Shown piece by piece: positions 13,775-49,659 of a stretch of 64,000 nt of DNA. Numbering within the stretch: the stretch's first letter is position 1; the number at the start of each line of letters is the position of its first letter. The stretch is from an uncultured Rhodothermales bacterium (GTDB lineage Bacteria > Bacteroidota > Rhodothermia > Rhodothermales > VXPQ01). A program made the position numbers and the translations under genes. The stretch covers positions 517-64,516 of the forward strand of contig CAZSNF010000008.1 in the NCBI GenBank assembly GCA_964608315.1. Direction: 5' to 3'. The notes below the pieces were generated by a model, which worked only from the letters and a program-made list of their open reading frames with translations, had not been told where the DNA came from and did no database searches.

Positions 13775-13941
13775 AGGGAACCTCTGATTAATTCCGCAAA
13801 GTTCAGAGGCTGCGAAGGACGCTTCACGTCCGCCATGCCCTGAATCCAGAGCGTTTATCGCTGATTTCAACGACGCAGTCATAACGTCCTGTGCGTGTGA
13901 ACGTGAAGCGCTGATCGAAGTAGATTTAATCAGAGGTTCCT
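13775..13941 (+). repeat. MITE-like nested-palindrome element, copy A (short form lacking the inner hairpin module)
   Basis: Termini agggaacctctgattaattc ... atttaatcagaggttcct. The interior matches copies D and I except for a deletion of about 95 bp. Lies in the divergent LysR/dioxygenase intergenic region. Confidence 0.85.
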
Positions 13942-13990
13942 CAGTATTACGGAGCATCCCGCTCCCGGACAAAACCAATTGGAGGTCGCG

Positions 13991-14803
13991 ATGGATCAGG
14001 ACGATCTGCCCGTCGGGCGAATTCTGAGTCGGAGAGAAGCGCTTCAGCTCTTATCCGGCGGTGGCGGCGCATTCCTCCTCGGCGGCGCCGCGTACGCCTC
14101 GATCGCCGGAACGTCCGCTTCCGCGAATTTCCCGGCCCGAACGGACGGCGCACCGCTGCCCGACTGTATCGTTCGTCCGGAAATGACCGAAGGACCGTAC
14201 TTCACCGACGAACGACTCGAACGATCGGATATCCGGCTCGAACCCTCGACCGGAGAAGTGAAACCCGGACTGCCGCTTGCGCTCACCTTCAACGTATCGC
14301 AGATCCGGGACGGGGCGTGCGCTCCCCTTGCCGGAGCGCTCGCAGACATATGGCAGTGCGACGCGCTGGGCCGCTATTCGGCCTTCAACGACAATGCGTT
14401 TGGCTTCGATACGCGCGGCGAATCATTCCTCAGGGGATATCAGCGAACGGATGAGCACGGCGCCGCTTCTTTTGCAACGATTTATCCCGGCTGGTATCCA
14501 GGCCGGGCGGTCCACATCCATTTCAAGATCCGCACGGAAGATGCGGAAGGGCAGGCGTACGAATTCACGTCGCAACTGTTTTTTGACGAGTCGCTGAACG
14601 ATGTCGTCCATGCCCGCGAGCCCTATGCGGAGCATGGACAACGGAACAGGCTGAATACGAGTGACCGCATCTTCAGCAAGGAACTTCTGCTCGACATCGC
14701 GTCGCAGGACGATGCCTGCAGCGCCACGTTCGGCATCGGTCTTGATCTGACGGATGCTGCGGTCGGCCGTATCGACGGCTTCAGACGTCGGCGGCGTCGT
14801 TAG
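13991..14803 (+). CDS. intradiol ring-cleavage dioxygenase-like protein with Tat signal
   Basis: ggagg SD at 13981 and ATG at 13991. Twin-arginine signal SRREALQLL. TEGPYF, GRYSAF and GRAVHIHFKI motifs are typical of the dioxygenase_C family. Confidence 0.7.
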   Translation: MDQDDLPVGRILSRREALQLLSGGGGAFLLGGAAYASIAGTSASANFPARTDGAPLPDCIVRPEMTEGPYFTDERLERSDIRLEPSTGEVKPGLPLALTFNVSQIRDGACAPLAGALADIWQCDALGRYSAFNDNAFGFDTRGESFLRGYQRTDEHGAASFATIYPGWYPGRAVHIHFKIRTEDAEGQAYEFTSQLFFDESLNDVVHAREPYAEHGQRNRLNTSDRIFSKELLLDIASQDDACSATFGIGLDLTDAAVGRIDGFRRRRRR

Positions 14804-14945
14804 CCGCCGGCGACGGAACGGCGCTTCGCGGTGATCGAGGAGGAACGCGGTGCGTTTGGGACATGATGCCTACCGTCCCGGAAACGATCATCCGATCCTG
14901 GTAGCCCCCGCTTAATGTGCGGGTGGATGCCCTGTGTGTCCGTAT

Positions 14946-48800: not shown

Positions 48801-49096
48801 CCGTTCACAGGGACCGTTTGCGTAACATAGCCCACAAAGGAAAAGACCAGCGAGGCGTTCGCATTGGACACGGTTATCTCGAACGTGCCGTCCACATCGC
48901 TGACGACGCCGTTCAGCGTACCGTCTTCAAGGATGTTCACGCCGGGAAGCGGCGCGTCGTCCTCGTCGGCAACCACGACGCCGTTCACGGTGAGGACCTG
49001 CGCATTCGCCACGCGAAGGCCTGAAAGCAAAAGCCCCGCGGATAGCAAAACGCAGAGGGCGGTACAGGTTCGAAAAGCGCCAGTTACCGTTTTCAT
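45893..49096 (-). CDS. SusC-like TonB-dependent receptor
   Basis: From ATG 49096: signal peptide, CarboxypepD_reg-like domain ([19 protein letters not shown]...GTFEI), plug ([31 protein letters not shown]), a large barrel and a terminal aromatic (…GFNVNVRM). Confidence 0.9.
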   Translation of the reverse strand: [1067 protein letters not shown]

Positions 49097-49411
49097 GGCA
49101 ATCAGGTAAGGTATGACCAGATGGTTTAAGGAAAGGAGACAACGCGCAGAAGAAGGGGGGGGGGCGTTGCCTGTACTGCGTATCAGCATGGTATGAACAA
49201 AAGTATGCATAGTCAAGGGCAGGTGTTCCCCGAAAATATTTTTTCCTATTATAATTAACCCGAACCCGGCCCGGAACGCTCAATGTGCATAGTCGAAAAT
49301 TTCATACATTCTTAAAAAGTTAAGTGTGTATGTGCATTTGCCTTAAAAAATAAATTATCTATTGTCGTATGGCTCTCTCGCGGCGCAGCGAGGCCAAAAC
49401 CCGAAAATATT

Positions 49412-49659
49412 TTAAGGAACCTCTGATTAATTCTGCAAAGTTCAGAGGCTGCGAAGGGGGGTACTGGTGCAGGATGGAACGGGTCTGTGGCGCGCCTTTT
49501 CACGAAACATAAGGGTGCGCAGACAAGGGGCTGGCAGCGGTATCCGGGGCCCGATGTTTCGTTCAAAGGCGCAACCACAGACCCTCCTTTACCGTTTTGC
49601 CTTAATTATTCATAGTATCCATAGAAACGTATCGCGAGATGTAATCAGAATATCCTTCA
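49412..49659 (+). repeat. MITE-like element, copy G (same module as F but with the central loop inverted)
   Basis: ttaaggaacctctgattaattctgcaaagttcagaggctgcga ... degenerate terminus cttaattattcatagtatcc, plus a second terminus-like motif taatcagaatatccttca (49642-49659) that contains the stop codon of the 49657 gene. Confidence 0.75.

What the first reader, a model, noticed from the sequence alone, without database searches (positions are those of the whole stretch)
13775..49659. Dense family of nested-palindrome MITE-like elements (at least 10 copies in 64 kb)
The copies are A 13775-13941, H 16546-16670, J 22943-22990, B 25471-25589, C 27812-28072, D 32905-33166, E 34465-34717, F 35414-35625, I 41555-41813 and G 49412-49659. 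Solo termini lie at 33173-33191, 35389-35403 and 62849-62865.

The copies share roughly 20-bp terminal inverted repeats, TTAAGGA(A/C/T)(C/A)CTCTGATTAA(T/A)T. Interiors are modular:
- an arm tgcaaagttcagaggctgcga;
- an arm gcgctgatcgaagtaga;
- an optional inner hairpin with repeated AGGAATGAC(G);
- or an alternative long-stem module, seen in F and G.

Sizes run from 48 bp (termini only) to 262 bp. All copies are intergenic, occur in both orientations, and no cognate transposase is visible. The only transposase is a truncated IS3 fragment into whose 3' end copy J is inserted. The density, about one per 6 kb, is unusually high. The family could equally be a REP/BIME-like structural RNA or DNA element.
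Basis: seen in the sequence. Interest (0 to 1): 0.65.

Follow-up and report, generated by a model that had tools for sequence, protein, structure and literature searches.

The report
Hairpin-rich MITEs with IS5-type ends
The repeats are real: about ten short, non-coding, hairpin-forming mobile-DNA elements (MITEs) lie between the genes of a Rhodothermales-like bacterium and carry the end sequence of an IS5-type insertion sequence, which is an ordinary kind of element, although I found no description of this family.

Summary
The terminal motif occurs 15 times in the window against 0 expected, and a profile search recovers the same ten copies.

It is a 4-bp target-site duplication: A has TCAG/TCAG, C has TAAA/TAAA, and D, E and F have TTAA/TTAA. 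Fragment H preserves the uninterrupted site into which D inserted.

The true 17-19-bp terminus, GGAACCTCTGATTAATTC, is identical to the left end of intact 1.2-kb IS5-group insertion sequences. These encode a 330-332-aa DDE transposase about 52% identical to E. coli IS5/ISKpn26. They occur on a Methylomonas plasmid and in at least 10 metagenome contigs, with the same 4-bp YTAR-type duplications.

So these are IS5-derived MITEs, not REP/BIME or piggyBac-like elements. No IS5 transposase lies in the window, and the rest of the genome could not be searched.

Features beyond the ordinary:
- Both ends are of the IS's left-end type.
- The same terminus flanks at least 29 unrelated, mostly hairpin-forming interiors in several phyla.
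- Stems in this family are kept by compensatory changes: 24 pairs against about 11 in shuffles.

This is a new member of a known kind, of moderate to low interest.

The parts
13777..13940 (+). Copy A, 164 bp. It is a deletion derivative that lacks hairpin 1. The duplicated target TCAG lies at 13773-13776 and 13941-13944. A sits between the divergent LysR-type gene (12738-13703, -) and a dioxygenase gene (13979-14803, +).
16546..16670 (+). Fragment H. It has no termini. It holds hairpin 1 (profile positions 40-130) joined to GATCGAAGTAG-GGCCTG-TTAA-CACTATGCAGCGGCGCTCTG. That stretch is the uninterrupted form of the site into which copy D inserted.
22944..22986 (.). Copy J, 43 bp, made of the two termini only. 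It lies in the 3' end of a truncated IS3-type transposase ORF (22487-22954). Its flanks are TACA and TTAA, so the duplication is not preserved.
25450..25470 (+). Variant solo end GGACGCCCCGATTAGGGCCTG, followed by TTAA and then copy B.
25475..25606 (-). Copy B, a truncated half: one terminus plus hairpin 2. The left flank is TTAA. It lies upstream of a restriction-modification gene pair.
27816..28069 (-). Copy C, full length at 254 bp. The duplication is TAAA/TAAA, and its left copy contains the stop codon of the SacI-like endonuclease gene (26702-27814).
32909..33162 (-). Copy D, full length at 254 bp, with both termini perfect and duplication TTAA/TTAA. It inserted into an older element remnant; H shows the corresponding empty site.
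33167..33187 (-).
34469..34713 (+). Copy E, full length at 245 bp, with both termini degenerate and duplication TTAA/TTAA. It fills almost the whole 275-bp gap between the divergent genes 33189-34451 (-) and 34727-35392 (+).
35393..35413 (+).
35418..35621 (+). Copy F, 204 bp. It is a chimaera: the family's left subterminal arm plus a different long-stem module ('PAL2'). The duplication is TTAA/TTAA, and the right copy supplies the FeoB stop codon.
41560..41812 (+). Copy I, full length at 253 bp, with both termini perfect. The flanks are TACA and TATA. It lies between two divergent DUF5916 genes (38744-41395 on -, 41875-44211 on +).
49416..49655 (+). Copy G, 240 bp. It is a chimaera carrying the PAL2 module, and its right terminus is degenerate. 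The flanks are TTAA and TTCA, and the right flank overlaps the stop codon of gene 49657-53121 (-).
49481..49610 (.). The PAL2 long-stem module inside G. It is also present, inverted, in F at about 35491-35576. It stands alone, without IS5-type ends, in a Rhodothermales genome at L018:2553-2682.
   Evidence: (I13)
62849..62862 (-). Solo terminus GGACACGCTGATTT (read on the - strand), with TTAA beside it.

Best explanation
These are miniature inverted-repeat transposable elements (MITEs) that use the ends of an IS5-group insertion sequence.

**Anatomy.** Each copy is a non-coding unit of 43-254 bp. It is bounded by a 17-19-bp inverted repeat, GGA(A/T/C)(C/A)CTCTGATTAA(A/T)T(C). Full-length copies have two different subterminal arms and two long internal hairpins.

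**Mechanism, inferred.** A DDE transposase of the IS5 group, encoded elsewhere (in the same genome now or in the past), binds the two termini. It moves the unit and integrates it at a 4-bp T/A-rich site of the TTAA/YTAR type, which is duplicated on insertion.

**Why the copies are intergenic.** In a 60% G+C genome such sites lie mostly between genes and at stop codons. Copies therefore pile up there and in one another, giving nested insertions.

**How the variants arose.** Deletion between short direct repeats gave A. Truncation gave B and H. Swapping of the interior module gave F and G.

**Shown versus inferred.**
- Shown: repeat family, termini, duplications, an empty site, identity of the terminus with intact IS5-group elements, conserved hairpins.
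- Inferred: mobilisation in trans by an IS5-group transposase, and any present-day activity.
For: **1. The family is real.** There are 15 terminal motifs against 0 expected, and a profile search finds 10 copies.

**2. Target-site duplications.** Five of the eight copies with two ends have identical 4-bp flanks: TCAG, TAAA and TTAA three times. Two more match at 3 of 4 positions.

**3. An empty site.** H carries CAGAGCGCCGCTGCATAGTG-TTAA-CAGGCCC. D's two flanks are the same sequence, split by TTAA-D-TTAA.

**4. The terminus belongs to IS5-group elements.**
- GGAACCTCTGATTAATTC is the left end of a 1205-bp IS annotated as an IS5-family transposase on Methylomonas plasmid pUP202.
- A metagenome scan for terminus plus transposase N-terminus returned 71 matching loci, of which at least 10 are intact 1193-1204-bp elements.
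- Their 330-332-aa ORFs are 86-91% identical to the Methylomonas one.
- Their duplications are TTAA/TTAA, CCAA/CCAA, CTAG/CTAG and CTAA/CTAA.
- The protein scores 270.6 bits on NCBIfam NF033581 'IS5 family transposase' (cut-off 140) and matches Pfam DDE_Tnp_1 plus DUF772.
- It is about 52% identical to IS5/ISKpn26.
- E. coli IS5's own end, GGAAGGTGCGAATAAG, matches 11 of 16 positions, and IS5 also makes 4-bp duplications.

**5. Other genomes behave the same way.** In 77 short elements with the same termini, 43 have identical 4-bp flanks, against 1 in a shifted control. The flanks are mostly TTAA, TTAG, CTAA and CTAG.

**6. No known RNA family.** Rfam gives no match.
Against: - No IS5-group transposase gene is in the 64-kb window (tblastx) or in the 8-kb Rhodothermales pieces I hold. 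A partner in this lineage is therefore unproven.
- The closest intact elements come from Methylomonas and other Methylococcaceae, not Rhodothermales.
- Intact elements have different left and right ends (…GATTAATT and …GAAAAAC). The MITEs carry the left-end type on both sides, and no right-end type occurs in 115 genome loci or the window. They are therefore not simple internal-deletion derivatives.
- Copies are only 71-89% identical to each other, and several termini and duplications are decayed (E, G, I, J).
- Metagenome contigs from at least three runs extend into both E and F on either side of the gene between them, so no empty site was seen there. The family may no longer be mobile.
Confidence: 0.85

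Rival explanations
1. The elements are MITEs by origin, but the host now keeps them for a structure-dependent job. They might act as transcribed hairpins that terminate or stabilise mRNAs, as promoter-bearing spacers, or as protein-binding DNA cruciforms. This would add to the MITE reading rather than replace it.
For: - Eight full-length copies that are only 62-91% identical keep 94% of cells paired across 78 predicted pairs.
- 24 pairs have changes on both sides, against 10.7 +/- 2.2 in shuffles (0 of 500 reach it) and 2-6 when the partners are slid.
- G-T pairs outnumber A-C 49 to 8 on one strand, and that strand folds better as RNA in 7 of 8 copies.
- Copy I folds with z = -6.1.
- A, E and I fill divergent promoter regions. 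C, F and G abut stop codons.
Against: - The orientation relative to the flanking genes is inconsistent. D would be transcribed in the 'good' orientation, C in the opposite one, and A, E and I lie between divergent genes.
- There are no promoter-like or terminator-like consensus sites beyond chance and no Rfam family.
- Many of the G-T cells are inherited in a few columns, so they are not independent events.
- Stems could instead be kept by selection for transposition competence in master copies, or by arm-to-arm templated repair.
- No expression data could be obtained.
Confidence: 0.2
2. These are REP/BIME-like extragenic palindromes spread by a RAYT (TnpA-REP, Y1) transposase.
Against: - The elements have 4-bp target duplications and a paralogous empty site. 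By my recollection REPs have neither.
- The termini are identical to those of IS5-group DDE elements.
- At 164-254 bp the units are far longer than the 20-40-nt REP palindrome I recall, and they do not start with the GTAG-type tetranucleotide I recall for REPs.
- The only transposase-like ORF seen in the window is the IS3 remnant, though only about 26 ORFs were scanned.
Confidence: 0.02
3. These are non-autonomous partners of a TTAA-specific transposase of the piggyBac/IS1380 type, or of another 4-bp-duplicating family such as IS701 or IS1182.
For: TTAA is the commonest duplicated target, both here and in other genomes.
Against: - Non-TTAA duplications occur: TCAG, TAAA, TTAG, CTAA and CTAG.
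- The termini begin GG…, not CC….
- The same 19-bp terminus lies directly upstream of genes that pass the IS5-family model. On the same protein, IS1182 scores 109 bits against a cut-off of 270, and IS1380 scores 26 against 180.
Confidence: 0.03

Closest known systems
IS5-group insertion sequences: the unnamed Methylomonas sp. UP202 pUP202 element (NZ_CP123898.1, 52817-54021) and its metagenome relatives; more distantly E. coli IS5 and ISKpn26
   Same: - The terminal 19 bp, GGAACCTCTGATTAATTC, is identical to the left end of the Methylomonas-type elements. It matches the IS5 end at 11 of 16 positions.
- Both make 4-bp duplications at TTAA/YTAR-type sites.
   Different: - The window elements are 43-254 bp and have no ORF. 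Nothing beyond the terminus resembles the IS.
- Both ends are of the left-end type, whereas the IS has a distinct right end (…CTCTGAAAAAC).
- The known full-length carriers are gammaproteobacterial (Methylococcaceae), not Rhodothermales.
Bacterial MITEs in general, e.g. Neisseria Correia/NEMIS elements and the Geobacter 'Chunjie' element. This comparison is recalled from memory and was not tested here.
   Same: They are short, have inverted-repeat ends, are flanked by target duplications, are intergenic, can fold into long hairpins, and depend on a transposase encoded elsewhere.
   Different: - The termini, the target (4-bp TTAA/YTAR here) and the interiors are different.
- This family lies in Rhodothermales.
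- It belongs to a much wider set in which one terminus flanks at least 29 unrelated interiors.
REP/BIME elements of Enterobacteria and Pseudomonas (recalled from memory)
   Same: They are dense, intergenic, palindromic and mosaic.
   Different: The window elements have target duplications and IS5-type termini. No RAYT was seen among the ORFs scanned, the units are longer, and there is no GTAG-type head.

Membership tests
MITE derived from / mobilised by an IS5-group insertion sequence | Terminal inverted repeats that match the ends of an IS5-group element | tested here: met
   19 of 19 positions match the left end of intact IS5-group elements. The transposase of those elements passes NCBIfam NF033581 (270.6 bits, cut-off 140).
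MITE derived from / mobilised by an IS5-group insertion sequence | 4-bp target-site duplication at a YTAR/TTAA-like site | tested here: met
   - Five of 8 two-ended copies have perfect duplications, and 2 more match at 3 of 4 positions.
- 43 of 77 elements in other genomes do, against 1 in the shifted control.
- Intact elements show the same pattern, as does E. coli IS5.
MITE derived from / mobilised by an IS5-group insertion sequence | Small, non-coding and multi-copy | tested here: met
   Copies are 43-254 bp and there are 10 in 64 kb, all of them intergenic except J, which lies in the 3' end of an IS3 remnant ORF.
MITE derived from / mobilised by an IS5-group insertion sequence | Evidence of insertion: a filled site compared with an empty site | tested here: met
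   There is a paralogous empty site: H holds D's two flanks joined across a single TTAA. No orthologous empty site was found, because metagenome contigs from at least three runs extend into E and F.
MITE derived from / mobilised by an IS5-group insertion sequence | A cognate transposase in the same genome or lineage | not testable with these tools
   None is present in the window or in the Rhodothermales pieces held.
MITE derived from / mobilised by an IS5-group insertion sequence | Internal-deletion origin, meaning one left and one right IS end | tested here: not met
   Both ends are of the left-end type. No right-end type (GGAAYCTCTGAAAAAC) occurs in the window or in 115 loci. This is not required for being a MITE, but it argues for a different origin, namely inverted duplication of one end.
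REP/BIME with RAYT | A 20-40-nt imperfect palindrome with a conserved GTAG-like head and no target duplication (definition recalled from memory) | tested here: not met
   The units are 164-254 bp, the ends start GGA, and duplications are present.
REP/BIME with RAYT | An associated Y1 (RAYT) transposase gene flanked by the repeats | not tested
   About 26 window ORFs were scanned with Pfam, and the only transposase domain found was the IS3 rve remnant. The window was not scanned exhaustively and the rest of the genome was unavailable.
piggyBac-like / IS1380 non-autonomous element | Strict TTAA duplication and CC…GG termini (definition recalled from memory) | tested here: not met
   Duplications include TCAG, TAAA, TTAG and CTAG, and the termini start GG.
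Curated structured RNA family (Rfam) | A match to a covariance model | tested here: not met
   At gathering thresholds only a tRNA matched. At E <= 1 over D, E and F the only hit was a chance miRNA match at E = 0.5.

The most novel reading that the evidence does not exclude
The window family may be one branch of a very wide, undescribed superfamily of 'left-end/left-end' foldback MITEs.
- One IS5-type terminus, GGAACCTCTGATTAAWT, flanks at least 29 unrelated interior families.
- They occur in genomes labelled Gammaproteobacteria, Desulfobacterota, Rhodothermales, Firmicutes, Gemmatimonadota and Planctomycetota.
- The interiors are almost always hairpin-forming.

The hairpin itself would be functionally required. 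It might serve mobilisation, with the transposase acting on a snapped-back or cruciform substrate that brings two identical ends together. Or it might serve the host. That would explain why stems are maintained by compensatory changes.
Probability: 0.2. Interest if true: 0.55.

Novelty: new member of a known kind. Interest (0 to 1): 0.33.

Why it matters
**Practical value.**
- It names the repeat that breaks assemblies of this organism: metagenome contigs end inside copies C, D, E and F.
- It gives exact boundaries for annotation.
- It shows that several genes here have a MITE directly at their start or stop. The promoter regions of three divergent gene pairs are largely MITE sequence, and the stop codons of three genes lie in the duplicated target.

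**Scientific value.**
- It links a Rhodothermales repeat family to the IS5 group.
- It shows that one IS5-type left end is shared by dozens of unrelated short elements across phyla.
- It offers a clean data set, divergent copies with compensated stems, for asking whether MITE hairpins are selected or merely inherited.

None of this overturns current understanding of bacterial MITEs.

Tried and rejected
- **Literature search for the terminal sequence** found only unrelated primers. Searches for IS5 MITEs with TTAA and for Rhodothermales MITEs found no description of this family.
- **Pairing termini 600-3500 bp apart** in 115 genome loci and the window, to find an autonomous element, gave only neighbouring MITEs.
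- **E. coli coordinates.** My first guess for IS5 in K-12 returned IS186. This was corrected.
- **Viral-contig scans.**
  - The transposase search returned mostly E. coli-type IS5 with the IS5 ends.
  - The terminus-plus-N-terminus scan gave one chance hit inside an IS66 gene and one truncated true hit.
  - Scans with the Rhodothermales-type ends found nothing.
- **Empty sites.** Contigs carrying the gene between E and F extend into both elements in every sample seen, so no empty site was found.
- **RNA strand reading.** G-T excess and better folding of one strand were considered. They were not adopted as the main explanation, because the orientation relative to transcription is inconsistent (plus gene context).
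- **Promoter and terminator consensus scan** over D-E-F gave nothing beyond chance.
- **A covariance model** of the 255-nt element was not built because calibration would exceed the tool's time limit. nhmmer served instead.
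Full report

Yes. None of 100 dinucleotide-preserving shuffles gave a single match.

The repeat finder shows the shared arms and modules. Reading each copy with its flanks confirms the coordinates to within a few bases. 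An nhmmer profile built from the four full-length copies (C, D, E, I) recovers A, B, C, D, E, F, G, H and I and nothing else in the window. J consists of termini only.

Every copy is intergenic by ORF and Pfam context, except J, which lies in the 3' end of an IS3 remnant. ORF 22487-22954 is the C-terminal part of an IS3-type integrase core (rve E 2e-16, rve_3 E 1.5e-16), and J lies in its 3' end.

**2. Where do the elements begin and end?**

The flanks say otherwise:

| Copy | Left flank / right flank |
|---|---|
| A | TCAG / TCAG |
| C | TAAA / TAAA |
| D, E, F | TTAA / TTAA |
| I | TACA / TATA |
| G | TTAA / TTCA |
| J | TACA / TTAA |

. So the element starts at GGA, the inverted repeat is 17-19 bp, and the four outer bases are a duplicated target.

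There is direct support from a paralogous empty site. Fragment H contains CAGAGCGCCGCTGCATAGTG-TTAA-CAGGCCC. D is flanked by the same left sequence, TTAA, D, TTAA and then CAGACCC.

Three 21-nt variant ends (GGAYACNCTGAYYAGGGYCTG) lie at 25450-25470, 33167-33187 and 35393-35413. Each is followed by TTAA and a copy (B, D and F). Copies have therefore repeatedly landed in or beside older relatives.

**3. What organism is this?**

- Several window proteins carry the type IX secretion C-terminal sorting domain (Por_Secre_tail) or SusD-like domains, or are TonB-dependent receptors with an N-terminal carboxypeptidase-regulatory-like domain.
- The same element family, with the same interior, occurs in MAGs labelled Rhodothermales: loci L018, L022, L041, L057, L065, L085 and L103.
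- Exact copies of window proteins occur only in short metagenome contigs, and these end inside copies C, D, E and F.

I therefore treat the source as an uncultured Rhodothermales-like bacterium. This is an inference.

**4. Whose ends are these?**

Most are in Gammaproteobacteria, with others in genomes labelled Desulfobacterota or 'Deltaproteobacteria', Rhodothermales, Oscillospirales/Clostridiales, Gemmatimonadota and Planctomycetota.

In these loci the terminus nearly always comes as a facing pair 27-434 bp apart. Of 77 such pairs, 43 have identical 4-bp flanks, against 1 in a control shifted by four bases. The flanks are TTAA (20), TTAG (10), CTAA (3), TTTA (3), CTAG (1) and a few others. 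This is close to the YTAR pattern I recall for IS5.

A BLAST of the terminus against plasmids placed it 50 bp upstream of a gene annotated 'IS5 family transposase' on Methylomonas sp. UP202 plasmid pUP202.
- The element there is 1205 bp.
- Its left end is GGAACCTCTGATTAATTCCCC and its right end is GGAATCTCTGAAAAACAGCC.
- Its flanks are TTAA and CTAA.
- Its transposase gene is frameshifted.

A metagenome scan for the terminus followed 60-90 nt later by the conserved FAD motif of the transposase N-terminus returned 71 loci.
- At least ten are intact 1193-1204-bp elements with a 330-332-aa ORF 86-91% identical to the Methylomonas protein.
- Perfect duplications include TTAA (L205, L247, L248) and CCAA (L218). 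A more distant clade, 46-48% identical, shows CTAG (L233) and CTAA (L252).

The protein scores 270.6 bits on NCBIfam NF033581 'IS5 family transposase' (cut-off 140). It has Pfam DDE_Tnp_1 plus DUF772. It is about 52% identical to IS5 and ISKpn26 transposases.

E. coli IS5 itself ends in GGAAGGTGCGAATAAG, which matches the window terminus at 11 of 16 positions, and it makes 4-bp duplications. Relatives whose transposase is 53-63% identical still begin GGAACCTCTG but differ at positions 11-17.

The window elements therefore carry the left end of one clade of IS5-group elements. No IS5-group transposase is encoded in the window or in the Rhodothermales pieces I hold.

**5. Anatomy of the family.**

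Full-length copies (C, D, E, I and four from Rhodothermales MAGs) are about 253 bp. In order they contain:
- a terminus;
- arm CTGCAAAGTTCA;
- hairpin 1, whose stem is GAGGCTGCGAGG…CCTCGCAGCCTC and whose loop region holds two GGAATGAC repeats;
- hairpin 2, whose stem is GGGCGCTTCRCG…CGYGAAGCGC;
- arm GATCGAAGTAG;
- a terminus.

The two subterminal arms differ from each other, so the element has a direction.

| Copy | How it differs from full length |
|---|---|
| A | Lacks hairpin 1. The breakpoints lie in a short direct repeat, CGA-GG-CGC, so a deletion is likely. |
| B | Is the hairpin-2 half only. |
| H | Is the hairpin-1 part only. |
| F, G | Keep the left arm but carry a different long-stem module. 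That module also stands alone, without these termini, in a Rhodothermales genome at L018:2553-2682. |

**6. Is the structure conserved?**

Copy I folds as single-stranded DNA at -65.2 kcal/mol, with z = -6.1. On the alignment of the eight full-length copies, which are only 62-91% identical, the consensus structure has 78 pairs.

| Measure | Observed | Shuffles | Partner slid by 1-3 columns |
|---|---|---|---|
| Cells paired | 94.0% | 87.5% | 34-42% |
| Pairs with changes on both sides | 24 | 10.7 +/- 2.2 (0 of 500 reach it) | 2-6 |

. The compensations concentrate in the hairpin-1 stem, with 11 of its 23 pairs, but also occur in the terminal stem and in hairpin 2.

The structure was predicted from the same alignment, which inflates 'cells paired'. 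It does not inflate the pair-count measures much.

One strand shows 49 G-T against 8 A-C cells, and it folds better as RNA in 7 of 8 copies. However, many of these cells are inherited, and the elements face both ways relative to their neighbouring genes. I therefore do not read this as proof of an RNA function.

Hairpin-rich interiors are general in this set. For 80 elements in 29 unrelated interior clusters, with the termini removed, the median fold z-score is -4.5, and 81% lie below -3.

**7. Mechanism.**

The best-supported account is ordinary. An IS5-group DDE transposase, encoded elsewhere, recognises the two termini and inserts the unit at a T/A-rich 4-bp site, which it duplicates. In a 60% G+C genome such sites are concentrated between genes and at stop codons. 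This fits what is seen:
- C's duplication contains the stop codon of the endonuclease gene.
- F's duplication contains the FeoB stop codon.
- G's duplication overlaps the stop codon of gene 49657-53121.
- A, E and I lie in divergent intergenic regions.

Two details depart from the textbook picture of a MITE as an internally deleted IS.
- Both ends are of the IS's left-end type. The right-end type is absent from the window and from 115 loci.
- Minimal 27-43-bp forms exist that are just two left ends back to back: J here, and L027, L033 and L044 elsewhere.

This suggests an origin by inverted duplication (snap-back) of one end, which is an inference.

The maintained stems could have any of three causes:
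- selection for transposition competence in master copies;
- host-level selection;
- arm-to-arm templated repair in palindromes, a mechanism I recall from the literature on template-switch mutations but did not test.

**8. Is the family still active?**

Probably not recently.
- Copies within the window are 71-89% identical. They are no closer to one another than to copies in other Rhodothermales genomes.
- E, G and C have degenerate termini, and I, G and J have decayed duplications.
- Metagenome contigs from at least three runs extend into E and F on either side of the gene between them.
- D, I and A, which have perfect GGAACC termini, look the youngest.

**9. Comparison with known families, and novelty.**

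The kind is known: bacterial MITEs tied to an IS family.
- Membership as an IS5-group MITE is met for termini, duplication, size and copy number, and evidence of insertion. The cognate transposase in this lineage is untested.
- REP/BIME, piggyBac-like/IS1380 and Rfam memberships are not met.
- I found no description of this terminus or of Rhodothermales MITEs in the searchable literature. The library is incomplete and ISfinder could not be consulted.

I rate it a new member of a known kind. Interest is moderate to low. The breadth of the shared terminus and the compensated hairpins are the parts worth a specialist's second look.

Noticed in passing
window 25475-28069: A type II restriction-modification gene pair is bracketed by copies B (truncated) and C (full length). 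The genes are a D12-class N6-adenine methyltransferase (25783-26718) and a SacI-like endonuclease (26702-27814). B and C have the same orientation and are 96% identical over 84 nt, closer than other copy pairs. C's duplicated target contains the endonuclease stop codon.
   Followed up: partly
window 17111-17269 and 13664-13687: Four copies of a 24-nt motif built around the palindrome TATGCA-N5-TGCATA lie next to tRNA-Arg(ACG) (17318-17392, - strand). A fifth lies upstream of the LysR-type gene. They look like operator sites.
   Followed up: no
window 6000-10200: A low-G+C stretch (43% at 6-8 kb, against about 60% elsewhere) holds an ORF with a weak SIR2_2 match (6853-7695) and an HATPase_c_3 ORF (8196-10151). 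It may be a horizontally acquired or defence-related island.
   Followed up: no
window 4189-4422 and 6216-6449: A 234-nt direct repeat, 84% identical, with copies 2 kb apart.
   Followed up: no
window 33734-34123: A long run of GTC-rich 9/12/18-nt tandem repeats lies inside the fibronectin-III / type IX secretion-tail gene 33189-34451 (- strand). A similar 12-nt coding repeat lies at 24607-24707 in gene 23038-25323.
   Followed up: no
window 35491-35576, 49481-49610; L018:2553-2682: The long-stem module inside F and G is a separate palindromic repeat. In a Rhodothermales MAG it stands alone, without IS5-type ends. It may be a second small repeat family.
   Followed up: partly
L027:258-284, L027:944-970, L033:1553-1579, L044:6265-6300: Several gammaproteobacterial genomes carry 27-36-bp perfect palindromes that are just two IS5-type left ends back to back, for example GGAACCTCTGATTAATTCAGAGGTTCC. 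This is the minimal form of the superfamily.
   Followed up: partly
window 38744-41395 (-) and 41875-44211 (+): Two divergently oriented paralogous DUF5916 genes flank copy I. Downstream lies a SusD-like gene (44302-45888, -) next to a TonB-dependent receptor gene (45893-49216, -).
   Followed up: no
L120:4005-5209 (Methylomonas sp. UP202 plasmid pUP202): The reference IS5-group element that carries the MITE terminus has a frameshifted transposase gene in this plasmid copy. Intact versions exist in metagenome contigs such as L205, L218, L221 and L247.
   Followed up: yes
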